A stretch of 64,000 nt of DNA from Elusimicrobia bacterium GWF2_62_30 (GTDB lineage: Bacteria; Elusimicrobiota; Elusimicrobia; Elusimicrobiales; UBA9959), in assembly GCA_001799995.1 (NCBI GenBank), contig MGUK01000070.1, positions 9,056 through 73,055 on the forward strand, in the 5' to 3' direction. A model generated the notes under the pieces. The model worked only from the letters and a program-made list of their open reading frames with translations, was not told the origin of the DNA and did not search any database. The stretch's first letter is position 1. Each line of letters begins with the position of its first letter. This document shows positions 24,514-56,398 of this stretch, piece after piece. The position numbers were made by a program, and so were the translations under genes.

Positions 24514-24532
24514 CCGGCCCGGGCGAAGGGCT

Positions 24533-26050: not shown

Positions 26051-26063
26051 TTGCGGGGCGGCT

Positions 26064-29006: not shown

Positions 29007-29673
29007 AAGCCTGCTTTCCGGGCGGAAGCTGCCGGGCGCGGGCTTTGCCGCGCTCATCGTGGGGAGCGAATTCTGCCAGAACCAGGTGCCCGCCCTGTCG
29101 CTGCTCAAAAGGCTGGCGCGCGCTTTCCCGGGCGTCGGGCTCTCCCTGGCGACGTCGATACTCACTGACAGCGGCCTGCGGCGCTGGGAGACCCTCTTCA
29201 GGGCCCTCAGGGGGACGAGGCTCGTGGCGGAGGTAGTCGCTAACGACTGGGGCATCTTCCCCCTGCTGAAAAAGACCGGGCCTTTTAAATTATCGTCCGG
29301 CAGGCTGCTGACGACCGAACTTACGCGCACCGACGCGGCCTGGGCGTCAGGCTTCATCCGTGAGCACGGCCTTGCCTCCGCGGAAACCGACGCCCCGCAA
29401 CGGGCGGCCGCCGCCGCCGCGCTGGGGCTAGCCGTTTCCTGGCACCCCGGGCCGGCGTTCAGGTCCGTTACCACGTTCTGCCCGTTCGAAAAACACTACA
29501 ACTCCCGCTGCGCCCATTCCTGCGGCGGCAAGCTGGTGAAACTCTCCAACCCTCTTATCCCCTATCCGCTGCTGCTGTCGGAAAAGGCCTATTTCGCCCC
29601 GGCCGGAAAGCAGCCCGGCCGCGCGGCCCGGCCGTGGCGGACGGTCACTACTTTCAACTTCCGGGCGAATTAG
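28969..29673 (+). CDS. Divergent U32-like partner subunit (UbiV-like position)
   Basis: Overlaps the upstream U32 gene by 38 nt. ALIVGSEFCQN..., VVANDWGIF, and the C-terminal Cys group TTFCPFEKHYNSRCAHSCGG parallel the second genes of the other two U32 pairs. Confidence 0.5.
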   Translation: MEKALLITPSEAESLLSGRKLPGAGFAALIVGSEFCQNQVPALSLLKRLARAFPGVGLSLATSILTDSGLRRWETLFRALRGTRLVAEVVANDWGIFPLLKKTGPFKLSSGRLLTTELTRTDAAWASGFIREHGLASAETDAPQRAAAAAALGLAVSWHPGPAFRSVTTFCPFEKHYNSRCAHSCGGKLVKLSNPLIPYPLLLSEKAYFAPAGKQPGRAARPWRTVTTFNFRAN

Positions 29674-33492: not shown

Positions 33493-35991
33493 ATGGAAAA
33501 CATAGTTTTCTTCGGCAAAGGCGGCATCGGCAAAAGCACCATCGCCTCCAACGTTACCGCGGCGCTCGCCCAGGGCAGCGCCAGGATCCTCCACGTGGGC
33601 TGCGACCCGAAAATGGATTCTTCGGTCTCCCTGATGGGCCGGGGCATCCCGCCCTTCACCTCCTCCGGGCTCCTCGAGGACGAGGAGACCCTCCGCAAGA
33701 GCATCCACCCTTCCCCGGTAAACGGCGTTTTCTGCATCGAGGCCGGCGGCCCCGACCCCGGGCTGGGCTGCGCCGGCGCGGGAATAAGCGCCATGCTCGA
33801 CACCATCCGCTCCGTCGCCCTGCTGGAGAAGGACCGCTACGACGCCGTGATCTTCGACGTGCTGGGCGACGTGGTCTGCGGCGGGTTCGCGGCCCCGCTC
33901 AGGCGCGGCTTCGCGCAAAAGGCCGTGATAGTCGTCTCCGAGGAAATACTGGCCCTCTACGCCGCCAACCGCCTGGTAAAGATGGTTGAGAACTATTCCC
34001 GCAACGGGGTTTACCTGGCCGGCCTGGCCGCCAACCTCAAGAACGCGGACGGCCTTAAAATAGTGCAGGATTTCGCCAGGGCGGTAAACACGAAGGTGCT
34101 GGGCGTGGTGCTGCGCAGCGCCGAGATCACGCGCGCGGAGAAGGCCCAGCGCGTAGCGGTGCTCCACGCCCCGCACAGCGACGCCGCCAGGCGCCTGCGC
34201 GCCCTGAGCCGGGCGATCGCTTCGGCCAGGCCGCCGGCCGCCCCCTGCCGGGCCCTGTCCGACCCCGAGATCTTCGCCTTCCTCAAAGGAGAGGCCGTAA
34301 AGCGCAGGCCGCCGGCCCCGCGGGCGGGCCCCGCTGCCCCCCGGTCCGGGCTCTCCCCCGTCGAGATGCGGGAGCTGCTGGACGAAATGGGTTTCAAGCT
34401 TTCGGGCATAGCCGGCGGCCAGGTGCTCTGCCGCCTGGGGCTGGACGGCCGCGAACTTAGGGTATTCATAGTCCCCGCGGGCAGGTGCGCCGAGGGAATG
34501 CAGCTCGTCAACGACTGGGGCATCTGCGTCGCCCCCGACGAGAAGGACGTGGACGGCGAACTCACGGGCAAGGTCCAGGCGGCGGCGCGCCGGCTCCGGC
34601 CCCTGCGCTTCGACGATTTCGTGGCCGCGTTCTGCGGCAGCGAAAGCTTTTACGGCAGCGTGATGACCTACAACCTCTCCGGGAACACCGCCGGGGACGG
34701 CCCGCCGGAGCGGCCTTATTACGCCTTCGGCCAATGGCAGAAATTCCTTTTCTCGAACTGCGACGGCAAATTCATCCCGCCTGGCTTCCCGATAGTCGAG
34801 CACGGCGACATCGAATGCCGCTTCGCCTTCTATAACGTAACGCCGCTGAGCATGTTCCAGACCTGGGGCGGCCTCGCGGGCAGCCCGGGCACTTCCCCCG
34901 TCCCGCGCCTGCCCAAGCAGGAAAAGAACGTCTTCAGCACCGGTTTCGATGCCCAGGACGCGTTCGCCGGGGACGAGGCGAAGATAGAGAAAGCCCTCAA
35001 CGTCGCCGCCGGCAGGACCGGGAAAAGCGGGCACGTAGAGCTTTATATGTGCTGCCCCGCCCACATGGTAGCGGGCGACGTGCGCGCCCCGGTGGAGCGC
35101 GTTTCCGAAAGAACGGGCATAAACGTCTTCATCGAGAGCTGCAACAGCATTTCGGTCCATGCCCCCGCCAAGACGGCCGCGCGCGCGGACTTCGTGGAGA
35201 AAGAACTGTCTTCCCGCGGCCGGCGCAAGCCTTCCCGCGACGTGAATTTTATAAACTTCGGCGATCCCCGGAAGCCGCTTTCCGCGCTGCTGGAAAGCGG
35301 CGGCCTTACGATAACGGCCCCTTCGGACGACCTCTACGCCGATATCCTCTCGGCCAGGCTGCAGATCCTGCCGGAGCCTGAGCCGGTACTGGTGCGGGCT
35401 TTCGAGCGGCGCGGCATAAAGTGGGTGTCGCCGCCGGCGCCTTACGGTTTCGCGGCCACCTCCAGGTGGCTGGCCGGCGTCTACTCGGCCCTGGGCCGGC
35501 CCGCGCCGCGCCCGCCGCGCGGCGGCGCCGCCGCGGCCCTGCGGCGCGGGCTGGCGGCCGGCTGCTCCGCGTTCACCGCCGGCTTCGTCGCCGCGCCCGA
35601 CGAGCTGCCCGTCCTTCTTTCGGACAGGTTCCCCGTTCTCGGCTTCATGGCCGAGGCGGGCTTCGCCCTCAGGCTGATGCTGTACGCGCCGGACAAGGAA
35701 GCAGAAAAGAAGGCTGAGCGGCGGACGCAGGAACTCCGCGCCAGGTTCAGCCGCGCCCGCGTGACGGCCGTTCTTTTCCGGACGCCGGCCCAGCTGGCCG
35801 CCGCCCTGGCCGGAGACCGCAAAATGCGGCTGGTCTATTCGGATATCGTCGCCGACCGGCGGATAGTCTCCGCCGGCAGGAACGTGCTGTCCCCCGCCGT
35901 CTTCGAGCCGGGCTACGACGGAGCGCTGGAAACCGCCAGGCGGCTGCTCAGGCTCTGCAAATGGAATTTCAATGAACGATACCTCCGCTGA
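33493..35991 (+). CDS. Nitrogenase-like fusion protein: NifH/BchL/CfbC-type ATPase (res 1 to ~265) + linker/insert + NifD/BchN/CfbD-type component-1 domain (res ~400 to 832)
   Basis: FFGKGGIGKST (P-loop), GCDPKMDS (switch I), CIEAGGPDPGLGCAG and FDVLGDVVCGGFA (both 4Fe-4S Cys contexts). Later VEHGDIECRF and ELYMCCPAHMVAGD resemble component-1 Cys contexts. Confidence 0.8.
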   Translation: MENIVFFGKGGIGKSTIASNVTAALAQGSARILHVGCDPKMDSSVSLMGRGIPPFTSSGLLEDEETLRKSIHPSPVNGVFCIEAGGPDPGLGCAGAGISAMLDTIRSVALLEKDRYDAVIFDVLGDVVCGGFAAPLRRGFAQKAVIVVSEEILALYAANRLVKMVENYSRNGVYLAGLAANLKNADGLKIVQDFARAVNTKVLGVVLRSAEITRAEKAQRVAVLHAPHSDAARRLRALSRAIASARPPAAPCRALSDPEIFAFLKGEAVKRRPPAPRAGPAAPRSGLSPVEMRELLDEMGFKLSGIAGGQVLCRLGLDGRELRVFIVPAGRCAEGMQLVNDWGICVAPDEKDVDGELTGKVQAAARRLRPLRFDDFVAAFCGSESFYGSVMTYNLSGNTAGDGPPERPYYAFGQWQKFLFSNCDGKFIPPGFPIVEHGDIECRFAFYNVTPLSMFQTWGGLAGSPGTSPVPRLPKQEKNVFSTGFDAQDAFAGDEAKIEKALNVAAGRTGKSGHVELYMCCPAHMVAGDVRAPVERVSERTGINVFIESCNSISVHAPAKTAARADFVEKELSSRGRRKPSRDVNFINFGDPRKPLSALLESGGLTITAPSDDLYADILSARLQILPEPEPVLVRAFERRGIKWVSPPAPYGFAATSRWLAGVYSALGRPAPRPPRGGAAAALRRGLAAGCSAFTAGFVAAPDELPVLLSDRFPVLGFMAEAGFALRLMLYAPDKEAEKKAERRTQELRARFSRARVTAVLFRTPAQLAAALAGDRKMRLVYSDIVADRRIVSAGRNVLSPAVFEPGYDGALETARRLLRLCKWNFNERYLR

Positions 35992-37249
35992 CGGCGAATT
36001 TTCAAGGACCTACGTGCTCCCGTACCTGCTGGGCGTTTACCTGGCGGCCAACGCGGTCAAGGACGTCTGCGTGGTGGTGGACGGGCCTGACTGCATCATG
36101 CAGAAGGCGGACCTCATCTGGGGCAACCACGACCTTTTTTCCACGCTGCTGTCGGGCGAAGGGCGGCACAGGATCCTCTGCACGATGGCCCACCCGGTCT
36201 CTTCCGACCGCAGCCCGGACACGAAGATAACCACGCTTGTCGGGAAGGTGGCCGCCTCGGGGCAATTCGGCGCGGTAGTGCTGACGGCGCTGCCTTTCAG
36301 CAGGATCTCCGGCGTGGATTACGCGGGGATAGCCGCCGCCGCGTCCGCCAGGACGCCGGTGGCCTATGTCCCCGCCAAGTCGCTGGAGCTGGACTGGCTG
36401 GACGGCTACGACGAGACGCTGGCCGCGCTGGCCCGGTCGCTCCCCGCGCCCCGCAAAGCTATAAAGCGCCGGCGCGCGGTAGTGCTGGCCGGCTATATGC
36501 TGGACCGCAACGAATTCGACCACTCGGCCAACCTGGCCGAGCTGCGGCGGCTGCTGGCGGCGGCCGGGCTTGAGACGGTCTCTGTCTGGCCTTCCGGCGG
36601 CGATTGCGCGGAGCTCGCCCGCGCCGCGCAAGCGGGGCTGGTAGTTTCCCTGCCGCACGGCAGGAAGACGGCGAAGGCGCTGTCCGAAAGGTTCGGCGCC
36701 CCGCTCGTGGAGACAGGGCTGCCGCTGGGTCTGCAGGGGACCCTCGACTGGCTTCGGACCATAACCCGGGCGGCCGGGCTCCGCGGGGAGCTGCCGGTAG
36801 CCCTGCGCGAGGAAGCCAGGCGGACGGCCGCGGTCATCGCCCCGGCCCTGCCGGCGCTCCTCCACAAGAACATCCTTTTCACCGGCGACCCGGGCCTTTA
36901 CTCGGCCCTGGCCTCCTTCGCGGAGGAACTGTGCATGGACGCCTCCTGCGCGCTGCTTAACACCAGGCGGCGCCCGGTCCGTACGGCCGGAACGCCTGCG
37001 GTAATGCTGTTCGGCCCGGAGATCCCGGCCGCGCGCGCCGCGGTACAGGCGCTGCCGGCCTACCAGAAGCCGCATCTCGCCGTCGGCGATTCGTTCGCGC
37101 TGTCCGAGGGGCTGAACTGCGGGCTGCCTTTCATGGAGTTCGGCTTCCCTTCGTACGCGCATCACTGCCTGACGGACGAGCCCTTCCTCGGTTTTTCCGG
37201 CGCAAGGAGCCTGGCCGCGCGCCTCCTTAACTGCCTGCACTCCGGTTAG
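35972..37249 (+). CDS. Nitrogenase component-1-like partner subunit (NifK/NifN/BchB-type)
   Basis: Overlaps the fusion gene by 20 nt. YLLGVYLAANAVKDVCVVVDGPDCIMQK resembles the HGP.GC-type N-terminal region of Oxidored_nitro proteins. Rossmann-like repeats follow (RRAVVLAGY..., NILFTGDPG). Confidence 0.65.
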   Translation: MNDTSADGEFSRTYVLPYLLGVYLAANAVKDVCVVVDGPDCIMQKADLIWGNHDLFSTLLSGEGRHRILCTMAHPVSSDRSPDTKITTLVGKVAASGQFGAVVLTALPFSRISGVDYAGIAAAASARTPVAYVPAKSLELDWLDGYDETLAALARSLPAPRKAIKRRRAVVLAGYMLDRNEFDHSANLAELRRLLAAAGLETVSVWPSGGDCAELARAAQAGLVVSLPHGRKTAKALSERFGAPLVETGLPLGLQGTLDWLRTITRAAGLRGELPVALREEARRTAAVIAPALPALLHKNILFTGDPGLYSALASFAEELCMDASCALLNTRRRPVRTAGTPAVMLFGPEIPAARAAVQALPAYQKPHLAVGDSFALSEGLNCGLPFMEFGFPSYAHHCLTDEPFLGFSGARSLAARLLNCLHSG

Positions 37250-37295
37250 CTCCGGGGGAGCCGCAGGAAGTTTCTTCAGCGGCGGGAATTTTACG

Positions 37296-38249
37296 ATGAG
37301 ACAAAAACGACCTGCGGCCCGCCGGAAGATAGAGCTGAACCAGATCATCAACGTGACCGCCGCGTGCAACCAGCGCTGCCTTTTCTGCTCGAGGGACAGC
37401 TGGCTGCCCCCTCACCCCCCCAAGCTCATCCGGGCCTCGATACGGAAGTTCAAGGACTCCGTCTGCTTCGAAGGAGGCGAGCCGACCCTCTTCCCGGACA
37501 CCCTCAAATGGATACGCTTCGCGAAGAAGGAAGGGGTCAGGAACGTCGTCCTCGTCACCAACGGCTTTTCCCTGGACGACCCCGCGGCGGCGGAGAAATA
37601 CGTCGAGGCCGGCGTGGATTTTTTCAACGTGAACCTGCCGGCGCATACCCCGGCCCTTTACGACGCCCTCACCCGGACCCGGGCCAACTTCGCCCGGCGG
37701 GTCAAGGCGGTGCGCACACTCATCCGCGCCGCGGGCGGGCGCAAGGTCCGCGTCACGCTGGTAGCGACCTCCGTCATGATCCCGAAGCTGCCGGAGTACG
37801 CCCTGTTCGTGCTGCGGAATTTTCCCGAGCTGCTCTACCTGGAGATAAATTTCCCGAAGCTGCTCGGCGGCTGCGTGGAGCGCCCCTGGCTCATACCGGA
37901 CCTCGCCGCCTGCCGGCTGCCCCTGCGGACGGCGGTAAAGCTCCTGCAGGCGGGCGGGATGAAGGTGATTACCGACGGGTTCCCGCTCTGCGCGATGAAA
38001 GGCTTCGAATACTGCGCGATAGACGCGCACGCGGCGGCTTACGGCGACCTCGGCCAGGACTACCTGGCGGAAAAGGAGCAGCGCCCGCCCTGTTCAGGCT
38101 GCTCGCTGGCGGCCGTCTGCAGGGGCCCGCGCAAAGATTATGTTTCCCGTCACGGCTGGAAAGAGCTACGCCCGAGCCGGGTGACGCCGGCTTCGGTGAA
38201 GGCGAAGATAGAGAAGGTTTTCGGCAGGCGCGGCGGCGGCTCCCGCTAG
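37296..38249 (+). CDS. Radical SAM enzyme, HxsC-like paralogue family
   Basis: CNQRCLFC, FEGGEPT, C-terminal CSGCSLAAVCRGPRKDYVSRHGWKELRP. Confidence 0.85.
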   Translation: MRQKRPAARRKIELNQIINVTAACNQRCLFCSRDSWLPPHPPKLIRASIRKFKDSVCFEGGEPTLFPDTLKWIRFAKKEGVRNVVLVTNGFSLDDPAAAEKYVEAGVDFFNVNLPAHTPALYDALTRTRANFARRVKAVRTLIRAAGGRKVRVTLVATSVMIPKLPEYALFVLRNFPELLYLEINFPKLLGGCVERPWLIPDLAACRLPLRTAVKLLQAGGMKVITDGFPLCAMKGFEYCAIDAHAAAYGDLGQDYLAEKEQRPPCSGCSLAAVCRGPRKDYVSRHGWKELRPSRVTPASVKAKIEKVFGRRGGGSR

Positions 38250-38265: not shown

Positions 38266-40359
38266 TTACGGGGCCTTTTGCCCCAGCAGCTTCCTGGCTT
38301 CGGCCAGTTTCGGCCAGGAAGGAGACGCGTTCTCCACGGTCCAGAGCAGGGCTTCCCCGGCCTCCTCGTTACGGCCCAGGGCCGTGAGCAGCCTGTAACT
38401 TTCAAAAGAAGCTTCGCTTCCGAGGTACGGGTTCCCGCCACCGGGTTTCCCCGGGCCCGCCGCATAAGCCGCTCCCTGGCAGGCTTGCAGCGCCCTTTCC
38501 TTCCCCCCTTCCCCTGAAGCGTCAAGACACTGTTCCATAAGCGCCTCGACGCCCTCTTTAGGCGCGGGCCTGGGAGCGCCGTCAAACGGAACGGCTTTCA
38601 AAACGCTGTGCTTGCCGGGACCAGGGGTTAGGGAAGTATTACCGGGCGGCCTGGCCTGCCCGACCGGCGGCGGAGTTTTTTTCCCGGCCAGCGGACCGGG
38701 CCCGCCGCCTGCGGGCCGGGGGCCGGCGGCCTGCGTCTCAAAACCATAAGCGAGCCCCAGGCCGCGGGCTTCCCGCACCAGCCCTGACCCGTTAAATTCC
38801 CGCTCCGCTTCCTTCTTATTTCCCTGGCCGGCCAGGATCTGGGCCCGCAGAAGCTTCAGGAAGCCGCGCGCGGGGTCCAGGGCCAGGGCCCTGTCGCACA
38901 ATATCATAGCGGCGCCGTAATTTCCCTGGCGCCGCTCGACCTCGGAGAGATGCCCCAGGAAAAGCGGGAAAAGCGCTTCGAGCTGGACGACCTTGCCGAT
39001 AGACCAGAAATTGCGGAGGATCGCTTTATCCAGGGCCTGGGCGGAAACCGCGGCGTTCTCCAGCAGCCCGGGCGCCTCCTGCCGGACATAGGCGAGTTCC
39101 GCCAGCGAAGCCTCGTTAAAGGACCTGTCCCCCGGGTTCAGCCAGGTAGCCGCGTAACTGAGCCGCTTGAGCGCGTCCTCCCGGGCCGTCTCCTTCCACG
39201 TCGGGCTGTCCGCGGCCCTGAACTTCTCGAAGCCCTTCAGCCCGCAGGCGGAGGCCGAGCGGAAGATCTCGTTCCAGACCGCACGGTTGTAGGAAGTGCG
39301 CCAATGCATGCCGTCGGTGAATTCGCGGAAGCCGGGAAGCCCGCTGTCCGCCACGCCGCGGAAAAGCTTGTCGAGGTCGGCCACGCACGCGCCTTCGGCG
39401 GCGGCCGCGCCGCGGATGCTGTCGTTGCGGGCCTCGCTGGCCCGGGCCATATCCGCGTCCACGTCCACCGCCTTCCGGTAATAGGCCGCGGCCTCGGCGG
39501 CGCGCCCCAGCTTGTCCAGGGTCCTGGCCGTATAGAAATTCAGCAGGCTGTCGTACGGCTGCGCCGCCAGCCCCGCGCGGAATTTTTCGAGGGCGGCCTT
39601 GTGGTCGTTCTCGTAAAAAAGTTTATACCCGGCGGCGAACTGCGGGTCCTCCAGTAAAAGCTGGGTCCGCGAAGGCATATCCCTGACGTTGGCCGGCAGC
39701 GTGCAGAAAACCACCGGCACGCCGGCTTTCCGGGCCGCGGCGGACATATCGGAGACCATGGCGGCATGTATCTTCAGCGAGGCTTTTTTAACGGCCTGCT
39801 GCGGCACGTCCGTGCGCGAATAATATTTCTCAAAGAGGCGGAATTTCCTGCGCTTCAGCTCGAAATCCAGGCCCGGGCAGTTCTGGTCGGGCGAGCCCTC
39901 GTGGTTCCCGCTCAGTATAACGAGCAGGTCCGGGTCATAGCGCAGGACCTCCTTGAAAATGCCGTAGATCCTTACGCTTTCGTAGCCGCCCATACCGCAG
40001 TTTATGATCTCGAAACCGGAGTTATCCACTGCGTCCGCGCCCTTCTCCCAGGGCAGGTCGGCGCAGCTGGAGAGCGCGCAGACACCCCTGTCCAGCAGGG
40101 CGGCGACGGACTCCCCCAGGACGAAAACCCTTTTTACCCCGGCGGGCTTCGGCATAGTGAACTTTTCAGGCATGGCCAGTTTTCGCTGCGCCGCGAATTC
40201 CCCTTTAGCGGTTTCGGCGAAGAACGGTTTTTTTATGTCGCCGCAATAATAGCCGGCCTGCCCGTCGTCCCTGGCGGCGCCGCTCCCCGGCGCGGCCCCG
40301 GCCCGCCGCGGCGCGGACAGCAGCAGGAACACCGGCAGGACCAAGAATAATTTGATCAT
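38266..40359 (-). CDS. Secreted SGNH-like hydrolase domain protein with TPR repeats and a Pro/Gly-rich spacer
   Basis: The ATG at 40359 (MIKLFLVLPVFLLLSA, signal peptide) overlaps the upstream stop (TGATG). KRVFVLGESVAAL (block I), IINCGMGGYES, ILSGNHEG (block III), FTDGMHW (block V). Paralogue of 26064-28004. Confidence 0.55.
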   Translation of the reverse strand: MIKLFLVLPVFLLLSAPRRAGAAPGSGAARDDGQAGYYCGDIKKPFFAETAKGEFAAQRKLAMPEKFTMPKPAGVKRVFVLGESVAALLDRGVCALSSCADLPWEKGADAVDNSGFEIINCGMGGYESVRIYGIFKEVLRYDPDLLVILSGNHEGSPDQNCPGLDFELKRRKFRLFEKYYSRTDVPQQAVKKASLKIHAAMVSDMSAAARKAGVPVVFCTLPANVRDMPSRTQLLLEDPQFAAGYKLFYENDHKAALEKFRAGLAAQPYDSLLNFYTARTLDKLGRAAEAAAYYRKAVDVDADMARASEARNDSIRGAAAAEGACVADLDKLFRGVADSGLPGFREFTDGMHWRTSYNRAVWNEIFRSASACGLKGFEKFRAADSPTWKETAREDALKRLSYAATWLNPGDRSFNEASLAELAYVRQEAPGLLENAAVSAQALDKAILRNFWSIGKVVQLEALFPLFLGHLSEVERRQGNYGAAMILCDRALALDPARGFLKLLRAQILAGQGNKKEAEREFNGSGLVREARGLGLAYGFETQAAGPRPAGGGPGPLAGKKTPPPVGQARPPGNTSLTPGPGKHSVLKAVPFDGAPRPAPKEGVEALMEQCLDASGEGGKERALQACQGAAYAAGPGKPGGGNPYLGSEASFESYRLLTALGRNEEAGEALLWTVENASPSWPKLAEARKLLGQKAP

Positions 40360-41174
40360 CAGGGAAAAGGGCAATAGACCAGCCGGTCGATACGCAGCTC
40401 CCGCAGTTCTTCGGCCGTGGAATAGAACTTTTCGGGGAACTCGAGGAAGACGGTGTTGCCCCGCACCGCGAGCTTTTCCTTTATCCAGGGATGGTCGACG
40501 GTGAAGGCGCAGGCCCGGCATTCCTGGCGGCACTCGATACCGCGCATGGAATCCTCCGGGCCGATATACGGCATCCCGACCATGCAGGTCCGCGTGGTCG
40601 TCAGGGGAAGGTAAGGGTAATAAAGAGTAAGGCTGAATTTCTCCCGGACGAACGGGCTGTCGTCCGACACGTAGTTGGCTACGGGCCTGGTGCCGGTGGA
40701 GGAGAACTCGTAGCGGCTTATCCCGCGTTTCGCCAGGAACGCCAGCGACAGGCTGTTCAGGACGGCTATGCCGTGGGCCTGCCTGACGAAGGCGTTGAGG
40801 GAGAACTGCCGTCCGGCGTTAAGCGTGAAGGGCAGCTTTTCGCGCGCGGCGAGCGCCAGCGCGCCGAAGTCGTTCACTGTTATCTCCAGCCTGTCCGCTG
40901 CCAGGCGCCCGGCGCGGTGCAGCTTCTTCAGCCCCTTGAAGACGGCCGACAGGCTTTCGACGCCCCTCTCCGTCAGGAGCGGGGTGAGCAGGCAGACTTT
41001 CTTGCCCAGCTCCTGGTACCCGGCCGCTTCGGCGCAGACGGACGCGTCCAGGAGGTTCTCGCAGAATTCCGAACCGATATAGACCCAGTCGAACCGCTTC
41101 AGCGCGTCCTTCACCCTGGTCTCCGGGAAGACGGAGCCGCCGAGCCTGATGCCGTGTTCGACGCGCCCCGTCAT
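40359..41174 (-). CDS. Divergent U32-like partner subunit (UbiV-like position)
   Basis: Only the last 271 codons of track ORF 40359..42050 are used; the ATG at 41174 overlaps the upstream stop (ATGA). FDWVYIGSEFCENLL, ITVNDFGAL, Cys group TTTRTCMVG...IECRQECRACAF. Confidence 0.5.
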   Translation of the reverse strand: MTGRVEHGIRLGGSVFPETRVKDALKRFDWVYIGSEFCENLLDASVCAEAAGYQELGKKVCLLTPLLTERGVESLSAVFKGLKKLHRAGRLAADRLEITVNDFGALALAAREKLPFTLNAGRQFSLNAFVRQAHGIAVLNSLSLAFLAKRGISRYEFSSTGTRPVANYVSDDSPFVREKFSLTLYYPYLPLTTTRTCMVGMPYIGPEDSMRGIECRQECRACAFTVDHPWIKEKLAVRGNTVFLEFPEKFYSTAEELRELRIDRLVYCPFP

Positions 41175-42124
41175 AGCTTGGGCTCCCGCCACCCGGACAT
41201 CTTTTCGATGAACCGCCGCCTGGCCTCGGCGGGCGGGAGGCAAGCGCGCAGCTCTTCGGCCAGGTCCAGCATAAGCCGCATCTCGCGCACCTTTTTGAAC
41301 TTTTGCGCGGAGGGGTCCTGGCGTATCCCGTACTTGAGGTAGCCGAGCCCGCCCGCGAAGAAGTCGAAGAAAGACGCCGCGTTGGCTATGCGCGGGGTGG
41401 TGCCGCAGCCGAACCTTTCGGAAAAGCGTTTTATGATCCCGCCCAGCCGCGGCTTCCACGCCGGGGAGAGGTTTATCACTCCCGGCGCGGGCATGCCGCA
41501 GGCCCCCATATCGGGGTGGCACATGGAGCCGCCTTTGTATTTGCGGGTGGCGCTGTAATATTCCGGCCTGTGCATATGGCAGCGGCCGTTCAGGTAGGAG
41601 CAGCCGAAGAACCGGTAGTCGAACATCTCCGTCTCTATCTTCTTCCGGCGGCAAAGGGCGAAGAGCTTCTTCGCTTCGTAAGGGGAAAGCTGGTTCGGGA
41701 GGATTATCCGCTTTATCCCAAGCCTTATGAAAAAATCCGCCGTCAGGCTGTTGAAGCAGGGCTGTAAAGAACTGAGATGAAGCCCCGCCCGGAGCCGCTT
41801 CAGCCTTGAGAAAAGCGTGAACATGGCGGGGTTCGCCACGATGAAATAATCCACCCCGAGCCCGTCGGCCTCCCCCAGGAGTTCGACCATGGAGGCCTCG
41901 CTGCGGGGATCGAAGTTCAGCGTCACGCTGTTGACCGCGAGGGAGATCTTCAGGCCCTCGGCGTGCGCGCTGCGCACGGCGTCCCCTAGCGCCTTCATGT
42001 CCGGCAGGGATTCCTGCGGCCCGAAGGAGGGCAGCTGGGCCACGCCGCAATAAAGCTCGTCCGCGCCGGCTTTAGCCAGCGCCCGGATCTCCGCGGGGTC
42101 AACGAAGCAGGAAACTATCTTCAT
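41171..42124 (-). CDS. Peptidase U32 family protein (UbiU-like)
   Basis: KAGADELYCGV..., GLKISLAVNS, GVDYFIVANPAM, LHLSSLQPCFN, GIKRIILPNQLS, and EMFDYRFFGCSYLNGRCHMH, which resembles the U32 E.F..G..C....G.C signature. Confidence 0.7.
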   Translation of the reverse strand: MKIVSCFVDPAEIRALAKAGADELYCGVAQLPSFGPQESLPDMKALGDAVRSAHAEGLKISLAVNSVTLNFDPRSEASMVELLGEADGLGVDYFIVANPAMFTLFSRLKRLRAGLHLSSLQPCFNSLTADFFIRLGIKRIILPNQLSPYEAKKLFALCRRKKIETEMFDYRFFGCSYLNGRCHMHRPEYYSATRKYKGGSMCHPDMGACGMPAPGVINLSPAWKPRLGGIIKRFSERFGCGTTPRIANAASFFDFFAGGLGYLKYGIRQDPSAQKFKKVREMRLMLDLAEELRACLPPAEARRRFIEKMSGWREPKL

Positions 42125-43044
42125 CAGAATCTTTCGGGCTCTATGGAAGCGGGGTCTTTTTTAGACGCCTTAAGTTCGCCGGACCCGTGCGCTTGCAGGT
42201 AATCGGCCCGGGCGCCGCAGCAGGCGGGCTCCAGCGCGCAGCGGGAGCAGGCCGGGCAGGCGGCTTTCGCGTCCACCCCGCCTTCCAGCACCTTGTCTCC
42301 CCGCCGCCAGCGGTGGAACTCGAAGGAAAAGCCCTCGGTGCCTTTCAGTTGGCAGAGGGGCACGTTCTGCGCCACGGTCTTGAGGCCGTTCATTTTCAGC
42401 GTAGCCAGGGCCATGTTCAGGAAAGGGGCCACCTGGGAGTAGCGCGGGATGATGGCGGGAGTTTTCAGCGCCCTGCCCTTGTTGCGGACGAAAGTGAAAT
42501 TGACCAGGGCCGCGCGGGGAAAATTCCTGGAAGCCCAGAGCGCGAATTCCGGCAGGAACCTGTAGTTAAGGCTGGAGATAATATGAAAGAGCCGGAGCTT
42601 TTCCTCCGCCCCGGCGGCCTTGAGGTTGGCCAGCCCCCTGACGGCCAGCTGGAACTTGACGCTGCGGGTGGCCCGCGCGTAAACCTCGGGCCGGTGGGAA
42701 GGGAAGTTAACGGTGAAATACTCTATTTCCTTTACCGATTTTTTACAGAAAGCGGGATCGGAAAGAGCCACCGCGTTGGTGGAAAGCATGAAATTCCTGA
42801 CCCCGGCGGCTTTAAGGGTTTTTATCCAGGTGAAAAAGTCACCACTGGCCGTGGGTTCGCCCCCGCCCTCCAGGCTTACGGCTTTGATCCCCGTTCTTTT
42901 AAGCTCCGCGGCGGTTTCGGGGAGGCCGCGCCTTTCGCCGGTGGGCGGGTTATGGCAATAGACGCAGTACAGGTTGCAGGTGCGCGCCATGCTGACGCAG
43001 GCCTGCTCGCTTATCCATTTCTTTTTCACGCCGGGATTCGCCAT
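42124..43044 (-). CDS. Radical SAM enzyme, HxsC-like paralogue family
   Basis: CNLYCVYC, LEGGGEPT, C-terminal CSRCALEPACCGARADYLQAHGSGELK. Its stop overlaps the U32 start (TGATG). Confidence 0.85.
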   Translation of the reverse strand: MANPGVKKKWISEQACVSMARTCNLYCVYCHNPPTGERRGLPETAAELKRTGIKAVSLEGGGEPTASGDFFTWIKTLKAAGVRNFMLSTNAVALSDPAFCKKSVKEIEYFTVNFPSHRPEVYARATRSVKFQLAVRGLANLKAAGAEEKLRLFHIISSLNYRFLPEFALWASRNFPRAALVNFTFVRNKGRALKTPAIIPRYSQVAPFLNMALATLKMNGLKTVAQNVPLCQLKGTEGFSFEFHRWRRGDKVLEGGVDAKAACPACSRCALEPACCGARADYLQAHGSGELKASKKDPASIEPERF

Positions 43045-43182
43045 ATGGCACGCTTTTATTATACCATTATAGCAGGAGACGGGAATTTAAGGGAAAACCC
43101 GCCCGGAACCGGGAAAAGCGCCCTCTGCCGGGCCCCGGCAGACTACCCGCGGACACCGTTCACCGTTGAGCAAACCACCCAG

Positions 43183-45714
43183 ATGGAAAGCATCGTATTC
43201 TTCGGCAAAGGCGGCATAGGCAAGAGCACCATTGCCGCCAGCGTCACGTCCCTCCTCGCGGCCGGGGGCAAGAAGGTCCTGCATATCGGCTGCGACCCCA
43301 AGATGGACTGCACCCTTTCCCTCATGGGCAGGCATATCGAGCCTTTCGCCATCCTGGGCGGCAGTTCCGGCCGCCCCGGCCTGCGCGACAGCATTTACCA
43401 GTCCCCGGTCCGCGGCGTCCACTGCATCGAGGCCGGCGGCCCGCAGCCCGGCGTAGGCTGCGGCGGCACCGCCATAGGCTCCATGCTGGACGCGATGAAG
43501 GACGAGGCCCTGCTCGAAAAAGACGGCTACGGCGCCGCCGTGTTCGACGTGCTCGGCGACGTGGTCTGCGGCGGCTTCGCGGCCCCGCTCCGGCGCGGCT
43601 TCGCGAAAAAGATGGTGATAGTCACGTCGGAAGAGATCCTTTCCCTTTACGCGGCCAACAGGCTGATAATGATGGCCGCCAACTACGCGCGCAACGGCGT
43701 CTACCTGGCCGGGCTCGCGGTGAACCTGAAGGACCAGACCCGCCTTAAGACCGTGGAGGAGTTCGCCCGCGCCGTGAACACCCGCATCCTGGGAGTGATG
43801 CTGCAGGACCCGGCCGTCTCCTCCGCCGAGCGCGAGCACAGGCCCGCGGCCATCGCCTACCCCAAGAGCGGCTTCGCGCGCCGGGTCTGGGCGCTGACGC
43901 AGGAGATACGGACGGCCAGGCCGCCGGCCACGCCGCCGCGCGCCCTGCCGGACCCGGATTTTTTCGCTTTCGCCGAAGGCAGGAGGACGGCCGTGCCCGC
44001 GGGCGCGCCCGCCGGGAAGGGCAGGAAGCAGGCCGTGAGATCCGCCAAGGCCCTTTTTTCCGCCGCCGGCTTCAAACCGGCCGGCATGGAAGACAGCCAG
44101 ATAATCTGCGACTGGAAATGCGGGCAGTCCCTTTACAAGGTAGTGATAGCGCCGGGCTCCTCGGCGAAGGGCGACATGCCCCGCATCTCGGACTGGGCCG
44201 TCTGCTTCCACCCGACGACCCCGCAGGAACCGCCCCCCCCGGGAGGCGCGCTGATGAAAGCCGCCGGGACCCTGGCCGGGCTGCGCTTCGACGAGATGCT
44301 GTCCGTTTTCACCGGGTCCAGGGATTTTTACGGGCCGCTCCTTAACCTGTCCGGCCCGGAAGACACGACCCTGGCCGCCCCCGACACGCCGCGGCGGCCG
44401 CACATGGGCTTCGGCCAGTGGCAGCGCTTCATCTTCCCCGCCGGGCTGAGCCAGGCCTACATCCCCCCCGGCTCGGTCATGGTCGAGCACGGCGATATCG
44501 AATGCCGCTTCTGCTCCTCCGAAAGCGGCATCCTGAACATGTTCAACGACAACCCCGGCATCAAGACCCCCGGCAAGGCCCTGAACATGCCGGTGCTGCC
44601 GAGGATAGACAAGCGCATCGTCAACACGGGCTTTTCCTCCGACGACGCGCTCTTCGGCGACGAGAAGAAAGTGGCGCGGTCCCTGGAAGCCGCGGCGGAT
44701 AAGGCCGGCCCCGGCGGGCTCGTGGAATTCTACGTCGGCTGCTCCCCCATCATGCTCGCCGGCGACACTTCCTCCCTGGCCGCGCGGGTCGAGCGGGAGA
44801 AGGGCGTAAAGATCATGCTGGAGCGCTTCAACAGTTTTTACGAGCACGGCAGCGCCAAGGGCGCCGTGCGCGTTTCGTACATGGCCCACAAACTTTCCAA
44901 GGCTGGCGCCGCGAAGGACCGCGACGTCTACCTGGCGGACTCTCACGACCCCACGGGCGTCCTGGACAAGCTGCTGGCCGAACACGGGATCTCCACCGTG
45001 GACCGCCGCAAGGATTTTTACCGCGAGGCGGCCTCGGCGCGCCTGCAGGTGCTCTCCCATCCCGATACCGTGCTGACCCCGGCTTTCGACAAGGCGGGCC
45101 TGAAGTGGATAATGCCGCCCCAACCCTACGGTTTCGGCGGCACGCACAAGTGGCTCGGCGCCATTGCCTCGGCGCTGGGCAGGAAAAAAGCCCCCGCGGG
45201 CCCCTCGGCGGCCCAGAAGGCGCTGGCGGCGGGGCTTTGGGCCCGCGCCAGCCGCTATACGGCGGCTTTCGTCCTGGCCACCGAGGAGATCGGCCTTCTT
45301 TCCGGGAGCACCGCGCTTAAAATGGTGCCCGTGCTGCCGGTGCTGGCCGAAGCCGGTTTCAAGGTGCGCCTGCTCCTGATGACCGCGGAAGGCCGGGACG
45401 GGAAGGCCGGCAAGCCCGGGCTCCCTGCCGAAGCGGCGGCGCAGCTCCGGGCGCTGAAAGCCTCCCTGCCGGGCACGCACCTCTCCACGGACACCTTCTC
45501 GAAGCAGGAAGAGCTGGCCAGGCTGCTGCGGGCTGACCCGCCCACGCGCCTGGTCTACTCGGACATACGCCGCGACCCGCGCGTGGTCTCCGCCGGGAAA
45601 TATCCGTTTTCGACCTCGCTCTTTGAACCGGGCTACGACGGCGCGCTGGAAACCTGGCGCAGGCTGCTGGCCCTCTGCGAATGGGATTTCAATGAAAGAT
45701 ACCTCCGGAACTGA
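43183..45714 (+). CDS. Second nitrogenase-like NifH-type/NifD-type fusion protein (843 aa)
   Basis: The ATG at 43183 (MESIVFFGKGGIGKST) lies inside track ORF 42187..45714. GCDPKMDC, CIEAGGPQPGVGCGG, FDVLGDVVCGGFA, later VEHGDIECRF and EFYVGCSPIMLAGD. 31 of the first 42 residues are identical to copy 1 (hand count). Confidence 0.8.
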   Translation: MESIVFFGKGGIGKSTIAASVTSLLAAGGKKVLHIGCDPKMDCTLSLMGRHIEPFAILGGSSGRPGLRDSIYQSPVRGVHCIEAGGPQPGVGCGGTAIGSMLDAMKDEALLEKDGYGAAVFDVLGDVVCGGFAAPLRRGFAKKMVIVTSEEILSLYAANRLIMMAANYARNGVYLAGLAVNLKDQTRLKTVEEFARAVNTRILGVMLQDPAVSSAEREHRPAAIAYPKSGFARRVWALTQEIRTARPPATPPRALPDPDFFAFAEGRRTAVPAGAPAGKGRKQAVRSAKALFSAAGFKPAGMEDSQIICDWKCGQSLYKVVIAPGSSAKGDMPRISDWAVCFHPTTPQEPPPPGGALMKAAGTLAGLRFDEMLSVFTGSRDFYGPLLNLSGPEDTTLAAPDTPRRPHMGFGQWQRFIFPAGLSQAYIPPGSVMVEHGDIECRFCSSESGILNMFNDNPGIKTPGKALNMPVLPRIDKRIVNTGFSSDDALFGDEKKVARSLEAAADKAGPGGLVEFYVGCSPIMLAGDTSSLAARVEREKGVKIMLERFNSFYEHGSAKGAVRVSYMAHKLSKAGAAKDRDVYLADSHDPTGVLDKLLAEHGISTVDRRKDFYREAASARLQVLSHPDTVLTPAFDKAGLKWIMPPQPYGFGGTHKWLGAIASALGRKKAPAGPSAAQKALAAGLWARASRYTAAFVLATEEIGLLSGSTALKMVPVLPVLAEAGFKVRLLLMTAEGRDGKAGKPGLPAEAAAQLRALKASLPGTHLSTDTFSKQEELARLLRADPPTRLVYSDIRRDPRVVSAGKYPFSTSLFEPGYDGALETWRRLLALCEWDFNERYLRN

Positions 45715-46987: not shown

Positions 46988-47034
46988 CGGAAGGGCCGGC
47001 GCAAGAACCACGCCGGAGGCGGTCTGAAAAAATC

Positions 47035-56388: not shown

Positions 56389-56398
56389 TGACGGCTCC

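What the first reader, a model, noticed from the sequence alone, without database searches (positions are those of the whole stretch)
40359..43044. Three copies of an rSAM + U32 + U32-partner triad (UbiU/UbiV-like pairs) with conserved overlapping junctions
Two collinear minus-strand triads are present:
- 43044 to 40359
- 50916 to 48216

Each consists of an HxsC-like rSAM (306 and 313 aa), a 317-aa U32 protein carrying E.FDYRFFGC.Y.NGRC, and a 269-271-aa divergent U32-like protein with its own Cys group. In both triads the junctions are identical in type: TGATG between the rSAM and the U32 gene, and ATGA between the U32 gene and its partner.

A third pair (28128-29673) is followed by a B12-rSAM instead.

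Heteromeric Fe-S U32 proteins are implicated in O2-independent hydroxylation: UbiU/UbiV for ubiquinone, RlhA for 23S rRNA C2501, and TrhP for tRNA U34. Three such pairs hard-wired to rSAMs and next to the nitrogenase-like reductases suggest a wholly anaerobic reduce/hydroxylate/alkylate tailoring line. I know of no described pathway with this composition.
Basis: partly seen in the sequence, partly recalled or inferred. Interest (0 to 1): 0.8.

Follow-up and report, generated by a model that had tools for sequence, protein, structure and literature searches.

The report
Radical-SAM plus paired U32 enzyme modules
Two three-gene modules (a radical SAM enzyme, a UbiU-like iron-sulfur U32 protein and an unannotated UbiV-like partner) and a third U32 pair really are there, and they most likely tailor a 27-repeat His-Xaa-Ser peptide encoded in the same gene string, not a tetrapyrrole or quinone.

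Summary
Two paralogous triads sit at the stated coordinates: HxsC-like radical SAM, Pfam U32 protein, 269-271-aa partner. They share 45-53% identity and the TGATG and ATGA junctions. A third U32 and partner pair precedes a B12-radical SAM gene.

- **U32 proteins.** They align with E. coli UbiU (hhalign 99%). Three of its four cluster cysteines are conserved.
- **Partners.** They have no Pfam domain. They model as a TIM barrel that matches the only solved U32 structure, and they carry four invariant cysteines in the UbiV layout (CXnCX17CX3C).

Triad 2 lies in one same-strand gene string with bona fide HxsD, HxsB and a 145-aa HxsA4 protein carrying 27 His-Xaa-Ser repeats.

- **Triad conservation.** The triad is conserved in 31 of 35 Elusimicrobia loci, often with HxsB.
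- **Nitrogenase-like genes.** They are a recurrent but dispensable neighbour.
- **Distant partner relatives.** About 20 loci in other phyla carry a partner and U32 pair inside quinohemoprotein amine dehydrogenase operons, where the O2-dependent peptide hydroxylase QhpG normally sits.

Best reading: heterodimeric Fe-S U32 enzymes acting as O2-independent hydroxylases on radical-SAM-matured peptides. This is inferred, not shown. It is a new variant of known kinds.

The parts
42124..43044 (-). Triad 1 radical SAM protein, 306 aa, HxsC-like. It has CX3CX2C and a Cys-rich C-terminus.
   Evidence: Pfam Radical_SAM 41.6 bits. Best NCBIfam hit is HxsC TIGR03977 at 64.5 bits against a cutoff of 267.9. 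53% identical to the triad 2 rSAM.
41171..42124 (-). Triad 1 U32 protein, 317 aa, the UbiU-like subunit. Cysteine pattern: C175-X6-C182-X19-C202-X37-C240.
   Evidence: Pfam PF01136 45.4 bits. hhalign against E. coli UbiU 99.1%. AF2 model pLDDT 82.7, and its top PDB fold hit is the U32 protein Mk0906 (5d88), E 4e-8.
40359..41174 (-). Triad 1 partner, 271 aa. It has no Pfam domain and is a UbiV-like TIM barrel with invariant C38, C197, C215 and C219.
   Evidence: The ATGA overlap with the U32 gene was read.
38266..40359 (-). 697-aa TPR protein, translationally coupled (TGATG) to the triad 1 partner. Its paralogue lies at 26064-28004, next to pair 3.
   Evidence: junction; 43% identity between the paralogues; TPR hits.
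49975..50916 (-). Triad 2 radical SAM protein, 313 aa, HxsC-like.
49022..49975 (-). Triad 2 U32 protein, 317 aa.
   Evidence: Pfam PF01136 39.4 bits. 45% identical to the triad 1 U32.
48216..49025 (-). Triad 2 partner, 269 aa.
   Evidence: 46% identical to the triad 1 partner. All four cysteines are conserved.
28128..29006 (+). Pair 3 U32 protein, 292 aa. It belongs to a second paralogous U32 family with a different cysteine spacing.
   Evidence: Pfam PF01136 45 bits. The same family is found in L013, L034, L035, L038-L041, L043 and L073.
28969..29673 (+). Pair 3 partner, 234 aa.
   Evidence: 29% identical to the triad 1 partner, E 2e-7. The four partner cysteines are retained.
29677..31197 (+). 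B12-binding radical SAM protein, 506 aa, directly after pair 3.
   Evidence: Pfam B12-binding plus Radical_SAM.
51696..52133 (-). HxsA4-type protein, 145 aa: a basic N-terminus, a hydrophobic segment, then 27 His-Xaa-Ser repeats running to the C-terminus. This is the proposed substrate.
   Evidence: Sequence. NCBIfam HxsA4 NF038313 87.7 bits against a cutoff of 55.
52184..53680 (-). HxsB radical SAM/SPASM maturase, 498 aa.
   Evidence: TIGR03978 467.5 bits against a cutoff of 370.
53677..54265 (-). HxsD (53864-54265) and an HxsD-like protein (53677-53916).
   Evidence: TIGR03976 60.3 bits against a cutoff of 50; NF038315 59.1 bits against 41.
43045..48234 (+). Nitrogenase-like module 2:
- NifH-NifD-like fusion (43045-45714, 889 aa)
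- NifK-like protein (45692-46987)
- HxsC-like rSAM (47035-48234)

It is divergent from triad 1 with 0 nt between the start codons, and convergent with triad 2.
33493..38249 (+). Nitrogenase-like module 1:
- NifH-NifD-like fusion (33493-35991, 832 aa)
- NifK-like protein (35972-37249)
- HxsC-like rSAM (37296-38249)

It is convergent with the triad 1 operon.

Best explanation
Each triad is a tailoring module of an enlarged His-Xaa-Ser (Hxs) peptide-maturation system.

**The module.** It consists of an HxsC-like radical SAM enzyme, translationally coupled to a two-subunit iron-sulfur U32 enzyme. The large subunit is UbiU-like. The small subunit is UbiV-like and belongs to a family without any Pfam model.

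**The substrate.** It is most likely the 145-aa HxsA4 protein with 27 His-Xaa-Ser repeats, encoded in the same gene string as triad 2. The substrate could also be an intermediate made from HxsA4 by HxsB, HxsD and the many HxsC-like radical SAM paralogues.

**The reaction.** All characterised U32 Fe-S enzymes hydroxylate sp2 carbons without O2. Relatives of this pair also occupy the QhpG position in quinohemoprotein amine dehydrogenase operons. By both analogies, I propose that the pair hydroxylates an aromatic or heteroaromatic side chain of the radical-SAM-bound peptide without O2. Here that would be the imidazole of the repeat histidines.

**The other modules.** The nitrogenase-like reductase modules and the B12-rSAM methylases are optional further tailoring steps on the same substrate.

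**Shown:** gene presence, paralogy, coupling, family assignments, cysteine conservation and gene-neighbourhood statistics.

**Inferred:** heterodimer formation, Fe-S binding, the peptide substrate, the hydroxylation chemistry and the target residue.
For: **The proteins**
- U32: Pfam PF01136 above cutoff in all three copies. The family profile aligns with E. coli UbiU at 99.1% over 278 columns, matching UbiU ligands C169, C176 and C193. The top fold hit is U32 Mk0906.
- Partner: four invariant cysteines, C38...C197-X17-C215-X3-C219, in 41/41 and 21/21 sequences. This mirrors the UbiV pattern CXnCX12CX3C, including the far-upstream first Cys (C38 against UbiV C39).
- Partner fold: a TIM-barrel model (pLDDT 85) that hits U32 5d88 with the best TM score in the list. 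hhalign against the neighbouring U32 family gives 83%. There is a weak NCBIfam U32 hit.

**Pairing**
- The partner is adjacent to a U32 gene in about 57 of 63 loci across phyla.
- The U32-to-partner gap is -17 to +6 nt in 40 of 41 Elusimicrobia pairs.
- The ATGA and TGATG junctions are present in the window.

**Peptide link**
- HxsB, HxsA4, HxsD and HxsD-like all score above curated cutoffs. They lie in the same same-strand gene string as triad 2.
- The triad is conserved in 31 of 35 Elusimicrobia loci. An HxsB homologue is within 10 kb in 19 of them. HxS-repeat ORFs are present in 5 of them, and a short one lies next to the archaeal pair in L044.
- L077 repeats the whole set in another organism.

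**Independent context**
- About 20 loci, mostly Acidobacteria, carry the order qhpA, qhpD (rSAM), qhpC (peptide), qhpB, partner, U32, ABC transporter, qhpE.
- No QhpG-like gene is found there.
- QhpG is the O2-dependent hydroxylase that binds the QhpC-QhpD complex (PMC7876137).
Against: - No experiment or complex model supports heterodimer formation, Fe-S binding or activity.
- The fourth UbiU ligand (C232) has no conserved equivalent: 18 of 44 family members have no candidate fourth Cys.
- The cysteine loop of the U32 model is low-confidence (residues 176-210).
- Sequence homology of the partner to UbiV specifically is weak. It is 67% with the narrow profile, but only 10-24% with the broad one.
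- Pfam does not recognise the partner. Generic TIM barrels outrank U32 by E-value in its fold search.
- HxS-repeat ORFs were found in only 5 of 35 Elusimicrobia loci. The commonest locus type has HxsD and an HxsB-like gene but no visible HxsA within 10 kb.
- None of the small radical SAM proteins reaches the HxsC or HxsC4 cutoff.
- Two QHNDH loci have the partner without an adjacent U32 gene.
- Histidine as the target residue is pure inference.
Confidence: 0.5

Rival explanations
1. The triads tailor a small molecule. Together with the Group VI nitrogenase-like reductases, the U32 pairs and radical SAM enzymes would reduce, hydroxylate and alkylate a tetrapyrrole-type or other cofactor, and the Hxs genes would be a separate neighbouring system. 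This combines the published reading of the locus with the first reader's tailoring line.
For: - Group V and IV-B nitrogenase-like enzymes reduce tetrapyrroles. The locus type was predicted to do so.
- Known U32 substrates are small aromatic rings or nucleobases.
- NFL modules sit directly beside triads in the window, and beside U32 genes, pairs or triads in 8 of 21 close NFL loci. In L073 the NifK-like gene is directly followed by a U32 gene.
- The archaeal locus L058 keeps NFL next to rSAM, U32 and partner.
- B12-rSAM, SAM methyltransferase, carbamoyltransferase and GT2 genes are typical of small-molecule clusters.
Against: - No tetrapyrrole biosynthesis gene was seen in the window.
- Every small radical SAM protein has the peptide maturase HxsC as its best family hit.
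- Triad 2 is co-directional with HxsA and HxsB, with gaps of 16-94 nt.
- Triads exist in genomes scored as lacking Group VI NFL.
- The QHNDH context shows the pair working in a protein-modifying operon.
Confidence: 0.2
2. The U32 pair is a peptidase, the original meaning of U32 (PrtC collagenases). It would remove the leader of HxsA or cut its glycine-rich period-3 repeats. In the QHNDH operons it would help process QhpC.
For: - The HxsA repeat region weakly hits collagen-like adhesin models.
- E. coli HxsA undergoes N-terminal processing that depends on HxsB and HxsC, by an unidentified protease.
- U32 is named for collagenase activity (own knowledge).
Against: - The conserved Fe-S cysteine motifs are those required for hydroxylase function in UbiU and UbiV.
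- The QHNDH operons already carry the dedicated protease QhpE. What they lack is the hydroxylase QhpG.
- No catalytic protease residues are defined for U32 (own knowledge).
Confidence: 0.1
3. The pair does not hydroxylate. It would be an auxiliary Fe-S or scaffold component of the adjacent radical SAM enzyme, for example for electron delivery or substrate holding. It might also carry out another prephenate-independent reaction.
For: - The fourth cluster ligand of the U32 subunit is variable, which would fit a site-differentiated or different cluster.
- The genes are tightly coupled to a radical SAM gene.
- QhpG also acts as a chaperone for the rSAM-peptide complex.
Against: All characterised Fe-S U32 proteins are hydroxylases. 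The position in QHNDH operons matches a missing hydroxylase.
Confidence: 0.15
4. The triads are housekeeping genes. They would be orthologues of UbiU/UbiV (quinone synthesis) or RlhA/TrhP (rRNA and tRNA hydroxylation) that happen to lie in the cluster.
For: The best NCBIfam hits of the U32 proteins are UbiU and TrhP.
Against: - Scores are far below the equivalog cutoffs: 28-54 bits against 440, and 27-46 bits against 534.
- There are three paralogous copies inside one cluster.
- Named members of the family are all Elusimicrobia, about 110 clusters.
- There are no ubiT or other ubi genes.
- A radical SAM gene is always next door.
Confidence: 0.03

Closest known systems
UbiU-UbiV, the O2-independent ubiquinone hydroxylase of E. 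coli (Pelosi 2019, PMC6747719; prephenate as O donor, PMC10990095)
   Same: - Two adjacent U32-type genes, one large and one small.
- The large subunit aligns over 278 columns and shares the CX6C...C cluster cysteines.
- The small subunit has the unusual UbiV layout, with one Cys near residue 38/39 and a distal C...CX3C.
- The gene order is large subunit then small subunit.
   Different: - About 20% identity, far below the equivalog cutoffs.
- The partner is not recognised by Pfam U32.
- The fourth UbiU ligand is not conserved.
- There is no UbiT or ubi gene context.
- The pair is always joined to a radical SAM gene.
- The context is peptide maturation (Hxs, QHNDH), not quinone synthesis.
HXS antiphage system HxsABCD (Nat Commun 2026, PMC13128918)
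   Same: HxsB, HxsD and a His-Xaa-Ser repeat protein are present above curated cutoffs. The small radical SAM proteins are HxsC-like. The logic is the same: radical SAM enzymes mature a repeat protein that has an N-terminal export or anchor segment.
   Different: - The canonical system has four genes, five repeats and a peptidoglycan-binding domain, and 99.7% of systems are in Pseudomonadota.
- Here there are 27 repeats with no such domain, and about ten HxsC-like paralogues, none reaching the HxsC cutoff.
- U32 pairs, nitrogenase-like reductases, B12-rSAMs, a carbamoyltransferase and a GT2 are added.
- An antiphage role is untested here.
Group VI nitrogenase-like (Nfl) loci of groundwater Elusimicrobia (Meheust 2020; Chem Rev 2026, PMC13474568)
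   Same: The same phylum and habitat, NifH/D/K-like genes surrounded by many radical SAM and B12-rSAM genes, and several copies per genome. The window is very likely one of these loci.
   Different: Those papers do not mention U32 genes, Hxs genes or any peptide substrate, and they propose tetrapyrrole reduction. Here NifH and NifD are fused. Triads also occur without NFL.
QhpG, the FAD monooxygenase of quinohemoprotein amine dehydrogenase maturation (PMC7876137)
   Same: This is a functional analogy. QhpG is a hydroxylase that acts on a peptide held by its radical SAM maturase (the QhpC-QhpD-QhpG complex). Partner and U32 relatives occupy its operon position in about 20 loci.
   Different: There is no sequence or fold relationship. 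QhpG needs O2 and FAD, whereas the pair is predicted to be Fe-S and O2-independent. The replacement is inferred from gene order only.

Membership tests
Peptidase_U32 (Pfam PF01136), middle genes | Score above the Pfam gathering threshold | tested here: met
   45.4, 39.4 and 45 bits against a cutoff of 22.4. Only the N-terminal half of the model is matched.
Peptidase_U32 (Pfam PF01136), partner genes | Score above the Pfam gathering threshold | tested here: not met
   No Pfam hit for any of the three partners. There is only a weak NCBIfam PRK15447 hit, E 9e-4. hhalign against the U32 family gives 67-83%.
U32 fold, partner genes | TIM-barrel fold that matches a solved U32 structure | tested here: inconclusive
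   The model has pLDDT 85. 5d88 is hit at E 2.8e-3 with TM 0.45/0.49, the best TM score listed, but it ranks 33rd by E-value behind generic TIM barrels.
UbiU (NCBIfam NF047963 equivalog) | Score above the curated cutoff of 440 bits | tested here: not met
   45, 27.7 and 53.9 bits.
UbiU | Four cluster cysteines, CX6CX16CX38C | tested here: inconclusive
   C175, C182 and C202 are conserved in 43-44 of 44 sequences. The fourth position (C240) is Cys in 21 of 44, and 18 of 44 have no candidate. The triad 1 protein itself has CX6CX19CX37C.
UbiV (NCBIfam NF047965 equivalog) | Score above the curated cutoff of 275 bits | tested here: not met
   The partners give no hit. hhalign against UbiV gives 67% with the narrow profile and 10-24% with the broad one.
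UbiV | Cysteine layout CXnCX12CX3C, with the first Cys far upstream | tested here: met
   C38...C197-X17-C215-X3-C219 is invariant in 41/41 and 21/21 sequences. The spacing is X17 rather than X12.
UbiU-UbiV type enzyme | Heterodimer with one [4Fe-4S] cluster per subunit | not testable with these tools
   Only indirect evidence is available: adjacency in about 57 of 63 loci and overlapping stop and start codons.
HxsC (TIGR03977) and HxsC4 (NF038332), triad rSAMs | Score above the curated cutoffs of 267.9 and 500 bits | tested here: not met
   64.5 and 67 bits for HxsC; 42 and 60 bits for HxsC4. These are nonetheless the best-hitting families.
His-Xaa-Ser system | HxsA repeat protein, HxsB and HxsD present together | tested here: met
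   HxsA4 87.7 against 55, HxsB 467.5 against 370, HxsD 60.3 against 50, HxsD-like 59.1 against 41.
His-Xaa-Ser system | A bona fide HxsC next to HxsB | tested here: not met
   About ten HxsC-like paralogues are present, but none reaches the cutoff. The best is 57384-58334, with 99 and 110 bits.
Group VI nitrogenase-like (Nfl) | NifH-like ATPase plus divergent NifD/K-like proteins, in Elusimicrobia, surrounded by rSAM genes | tested here: met
   Pfam Fer4_NifH plus Oxidored_nitro. There is a NifH-like region at E 6e-44. The taxon is inferred from homologues.
Group VI nitrogenase-like (Nfl) | Placement in the Group VI clade of a NifH/NifD tree | not tested
   No reference Group VI sequences were available to build the tree.
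TrhP / RlhA (RNA hydroxylases) | Score above the TrhP equivalog cutoff of 534 bits | tested here: not met
   28.7, 26.7 and 46 bits.

The most novel reading that the evidence does not exclude
Pairs of a U32 protein and this unannotated partner would be a general, previously unrecognised class of O2-independent hydroxylases. They would act on peptides and proteins held by radical SAM maturases.

- **In QHNDH operons.** In Acidobacteria and a few other phyla, they would replace the O2-dependent QhpG in making the cysteine tryptophylquinone cofactor.
- **In groundwater Elusimicrobia.** They would work with HxsC-like radical SAM enzymes, Group VI nitrogenase-like reductases and B12-rSAM methylases. 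Together these would convert the histidines of a 27-repeat HxsA protein into new hydroxylated, reduced or methylated residues.

Group VI nitrogenase-like enzymes would then be the first of their superfamily to act on a peptide rather than a tetrapyrrole or small molecule.
Probability: 0.3. Interest if true: 0.9.

Novelty: new variant of a known kind. Interest (0 to 1): 0.75.

Why it matters
- **Group VI nitrogenase-like enzymes.** As of 2026 this group has no characterised member, and its only functional guess is tetrapyrrole reduction. A genuine HxsA/HxsB/HxsD core and peptide-type radical SAM enzymes lie in the same gene strings as the nitrogenase-like genes and the U32 pairs. This gives a concrete substrate that can be tested by expression.
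- **U32 Fe-S hydroxylases.** They are known only for quinones and RNA bases. A peptide-directed branch would extend O2-independent hydroxylation to protein side chains.
- **The QHNDH operons.** They offer a simple test with a known product, CTQ.
- **The partner family.** It has about 1,700 clusters at 50% identity and no Pfam model, so it is a sizeable blind spot in annotation.
- **The HXS antiphage system.** This would be a greatly expanded relative of a recently described system, found outside Pseudomonadota.

Tried and rejected
- **PDB sequence searches.** The partner profile, the triad 1 U32 and the triad 1 rSAM gave no meaningful hit.
- **UbiV homology.** I tried to strengthen it with a broader partner profile (A3) and a UbiV family alignment (A4). 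The probability fell to 10-24%. The UbiV homologue search listed only proteins at least 72% identical to E. coli UbiV, nearly all 85% or more, so A4 is shallow.
- **A possible fourth U32-like pair.** The 321-aa and 336-aa ORFs (55378-57364) follow another HxsC-like rSAM. I rejected them: no BLAST, Pfam or NCBIfam similarity, and the 321-aa protein looks like a polytopic membrane protein.
- **QhpG in the Acidobacterial loci.**
  - No conserved QhpG-sized family was found among 18 loci.
  - The flanks of L050 are housekeeping genes.
  - The FAD protein in L050 is GlpD-like.
  - QhpG elsewhere in those genomes is not excluded.
- **HxS-repeat ORFs in the commonest Elusimicrobia locus type (L019-like).** None lies within 10 kb. 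That locus type has only HxsD, an HxsB-like gene and an inserted barnase/barstar-like pair.
- **PADLOC.** It gave only generic viperin-type rSAM similarity.
- **Rfam.** It found nothing in the window.
- **Cysteine geometry.** Coordinates of the models were not available to me, so I could not measure it.
- **Bias in the gap statistics.** Start codons were chosen as the nearest in-frame start, which biases gaps towards small values.

Full report
**1. The observation**

The window is 60-68% G+C, so raw ORF lists are noisy. They were called identically in several independent public assemblies of the same sequence.

- Triad 1 (minus strand): rSAM 42124-43044, U32 41171-42124, partner 40359-41174.
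- Triad 2 (minus strand): rSAM 49975-50916, U32 49022-49975, partner 48216-49025.

The junctions are as stated: TGATG between rSAM and U32, and ATGA between U32 and partner, in both triads. The triad 1 partner is coupled by another TGATG to a 697-aa TPR protein.

The triads are paralogues: 53% (rSAM), 45% (U32) and 46% (partner) identity. A third pair, U32 at 28128-29006 and partner at 28969-29673, is more distant: 28.5% and 29% identical to triad 1. It is followed after 3 nt by a B12-binding radical SAM gene.

**2. What the three proteins are**

*U32 proteins.* All three pass the Pfam Peptidase_U32 threshold.
- A 44-sequence profile aligns with E. coli UbiU at 99.1% probability over 278 columns.
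- C175, C182 and C202 correspond to the UbiU cluster ligands C169, C176 and C193.
- The fourth ligand (UbiU C232) has no conserved counterpart. The triad 1 protein has C240 in the right place (CX6CX19CX37C, against CX6CX16CX38C in UbiU). However, 18 of 44 relatives have no candidate.
- The AF2 model (pLDDT 82.7) has U32 Mk0906 as its top PDB match, E 4e-8. Its cysteine loop is poorly predicted.

*Partners.* They have no Pfam domain, and all named homologues are 'hypothetical protein' from Elusimicrobia.
- They carry four invariant cysteines: C38 in a GxEFCENL motif, then C197, C215 and C219.
- This matches the special UbiV layout, with one Cys near residue 39 and a distal C...CX3C.
- The model (pLDDT 85, pTM 0.86) is a TIM barrel. 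U32 Mk0906 gives the best TM score listed (0.45/0.49) but is outranked by generic barrels on E-value.
- Profile comparisons support a relationship to the U32 barrel at 67-83%. Support for a relationship to UbiV itself is weak: 67% with the narrow profile and 10-24% with the broad one.
- I therefore call the partner U32-like and UbiV-like in architecture, not a UbiV family member.

*Radical SAM proteins.* They have CX3CX2C and a Cys-rich C-terminus. Their best family hit is the peptide maturase HxsC, far below its cutoff.

**3. Context in the window**

From about 10.9 kb to the end of the window there is one very large cluster. It holds:
- a carbamoyltransferase;
- about ten HxsC-like radical SAM paralogues;
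- two B12-rSAMs and one other large rSAM;
- a SAM methyltransferase, DUF2284 and GT2;
- TPR and GDSL/TPR proteins;
- a class V aminotransferase;
- two nitrogenase-like modules, each consisting of a NifH-NifD-like fusion, a NifK-like protein and an HxsC-like rSAM.

Immediately upstream, that string contains an HxsC-like rSAM, HxsD, an HxsD-like protein, HxsB, and a 145-aa protein with 27 His-Xaa-Ser repeats (HxsA4). All four Hxs proteins score above curated NCBIfam cutoffs. This is a bona fide His-Xaa-Ser core.

The canonical four-gene HXS system was shown in 2026 to be an antiphage system. In it, HxsB and HxsC mature HxsA, HxsC binds HxsD, and a +8 Da modification falls on an SHRSS motif.

**4. 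Related loci**

*Genome scan with the partner profile.* A scan of GTDB species genomes gave 63 loci.
- The partner lies next to a U32 gene in about 57 of them.
- Of 35 Elusimicrobia loci:
  - 31 have the rSAM, U32, partner order;
  - 19 have an HxsB homologue within 10 kb;
  - 8 also have the pair-3 type;
  - 5 have HxS-repeat ORFs;
  - only 1 has nitrogenase-like genes.
- An archaeal locus (L058) keeps NFL genes next to rSAM, U32 and partner. Another (L044) has a short His-rich ORF ending ...HSSHGSY beside the pair.

*Scan from the NFL side.* In metagenome contigs, 8 of 21 close relatives of the NifK-like gene have a U32 gene, a pair or a triad in the locus. The arrangements are the same divergent and convergent ones seen in the window. 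Eight other loci of 7 kb or more have none. One 176-kb contig (L077) repeats the whole set: HxsB, two HxsA, HxsD, NFL and a triad.

*Published genome table.* In the table of Meheust et al., four triad-bearing genomes are scored positive for Group VI. Two genomes of at least 90% completeness are scored negative.

The nitrogenase-like module is therefore a recurrent but optional companion. The constant companions are radical SAM peptide-maturase genes.

**5. An independent context**

About 20 of the 27 non-Elusimicrobia loci are quinohemoprotein amine dehydrogenase operons. Most are Acidobacteria; one each is an Alphaproteobacteria MAG and a Desulfobacteraceae MAG.
- The gene order is qhpA, qhpD (rSAM maturase), qhpC (gamma peptide), qhpB, partner, U32, ABC exporter, qhpE.
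- The four partner cysteines are invariant there too.
- Canonical operons contain QhpG, an FAD monooxygenase. It binds the QhpC-QhpD complex and uses O2 to dihydroxylate the Trp that becomes cysteine tryptophylquinone.
- No QhpG-like gene is conserved in these loci. The one FAD protein near L050 is GlpD-like.

The simplest reading is that the pair supplies the missing peptide hydroxylation. This is gene-order inference only. Two loci have the partner without a neighbouring U32 gene.

**6. Mechanism proposed**

*Shown:*
- paralogous, tightly coupled three-gene modules;
- a UbiU-like subunit and a UbiV-like subunit with conserved cluster-type cysteines;
- co-location with Hxs genes and with peptide-type radical SAM enzymes;
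- a second, unrelated peptide-maturation context for the same kind of pair.

*Inferred:*
- The two U32-type proteins form a heterodimer with Fe-S clusters.
- They dock on the HxsC-like radical SAM enzyme or on its peptide complex, as QhpG does with QhpD-QhpC.
- They hydroxylate a side chain without O2. All known substrates of Fe-S U32 enzymes are sp2 ring carbons (quinone precursors, C5 of U and C). By that pattern the imidazole of the repeat histidines is the most likely target, but nothing here tests it.
- The nitrogenase-like reductases and B12-rSAM methylases would add further steps on the same substrate.

I put 0.5 on the module-on-peptide explanation as a whole, and much less on histidine specifically.

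**7. Rivals**

| Rival | Weight | Main point |
|---|---|---|
| Small-molecule or tetrapyrrole tailoring with the nitrogenase-like enzymes | 0.2 | Favoured by the precedent of nitrogenase-like enzymes and typical small-molecule genes. Weakened by the absence of tetrapyrrole genes, the HxsC-like nature of all small rSAMs and triads in Group VI-negative genomes. |
| Non-hydroxylating Fe-S or scaffold role | 0.15 | Fits the variable fourth ligand. |
| Peptidase role | 0.1 | The QHNDH operons already have QhpE and lack the hydroxylase. |
| Housekeeping UbiUV, RlhA or TrhP | 0.03 | Contradicted by scores, copy number, taxon restriction and context. |

**8. Novelty and limits**

- The Group VI NFL locus type is published. 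Neither that paper nor the 2026 review mentions U32, Hxs or peptides. A full-text search for U32 with radical SAM and RiPP found nothing relevant.
- The partner family has about 1,700 clusters at 50% identity and no Pfam model.
- I rate this a new variant of known kinds: U32 Fe-S hydroxylases and Hxs maturation systems.
- Limits:
  - there was no complex modelling and no access to model coordinates;
  - flanks were limited to 10 kb;
  - the loci come from draft MAGs;
  - HxsA was detected only through a simple repeat pattern;
  - the host phylum is inferred from homologues, because names for the window's own proteins are withheld.

Noticed in passing
window 51696-52133 (-), with 52184-54265 (-): A 145-aa HxsA4-type protein with 27 His-Xaa-Ser repeats running to the C-terminus (...GSHGSHGSY). 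It lies directly downstream of bona fide HxsB, an HxsD-like protein and HxsD, and upstream of a 222-aa secreted protein and triad 2. This is a greatly expanded relative of the HXS antiphage system, outside Pseudomonadota.
   Followed up: yes
L050 5252-13975, and about 19 other loci (L046, L049-L057, L059-L062, L064-L068, L071, L072): Quinohemoprotein amine dehydrogenase operons (mostly Acidobacteria) carry a partner and U32 pair between qhpB and the ABC exporter. No QhpG-like gene is present. This may be an O2-independent route to the cysteine tryptophylquinone cofactor.
   Followed up: partly
window 33493-35991 (+) and 43045-45714 (+): The NifH-like and NifD-like parts are fused into single proteins of 832 and 889 aa. 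The start codon of the second fusion (43045) abuts the start codon of the triad 1 rSAM (43044) on the other strand, with no intergenic base.
   Followed up: partly
window 12735-13679, 37296-38249, 42124-43044, 47035-48234, 49975-50916, 54441-55370, 57384-58334, 60701-63583: There are about ten paralogous small radical SAM proteins (22-53% identical). For every one that was scanned, the best family hit is HxsC or HxsC4, and none reaches either curated cutoff. Each nitrogenase-like module and each triad has its own copy.
   Followed up: partly
window 9175-9891 (-): A 238-aa ORF whose sequence looks like an IS200/RAYT-type Y1 transposase, judged by eye only. It lies in a lower-GC patch (about 54%) at the border between flagellar and two-component genes and the biosynthetic cluster.
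   Followed up: no
window 21837-26191 and 26064-28004 / 38266-40359: Three paralogous GDSL/SGNH-hydrolase plus TPR proteins, and two paralogous large TPR proteins (43% identical). One of each of the TPR pair sits next to a U32 pair. Their role is unknown.
   Followed up: no
L073 (4.8-kb metagenome contig): The NifK-like gene is directly followed by a pair-3-type U32 gene that is 85% identical to window 28128-29006. This is a tighter NFL-U32 link than in the window.
   Followed up: no
L019 6970-7928 (-): Two ORFs (130 and 186 aa) are inserted between the HxsD-like gene and the triad in the commonest Elusimicrobia locus type. By eye they look like a barstar and a secreted guanyl-specific RNase (barnase-like). 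No family search was run on them.
   Followed up: no
L064 9863-10720 (+) (Bryobacterales bacterium F-183, a nearly complete genome whose record title, unlike the others, is not marked as a MAG): The partner-like gene ends the qhp operon and no U32 gene follows it. L061 is similar. The partner may therefore sometimes work alone or with a distant U32.
   Followed up: partly
L044 8642-9049 (-) (Nanobdellota archaeon MAG): An ORF ending ...QHQHHYNHTSHSSHGSY lies divergently next to a U32 and partner pair. Its C-terminal SHGSY matches the end of the window's HxsA.
   Followed up: no
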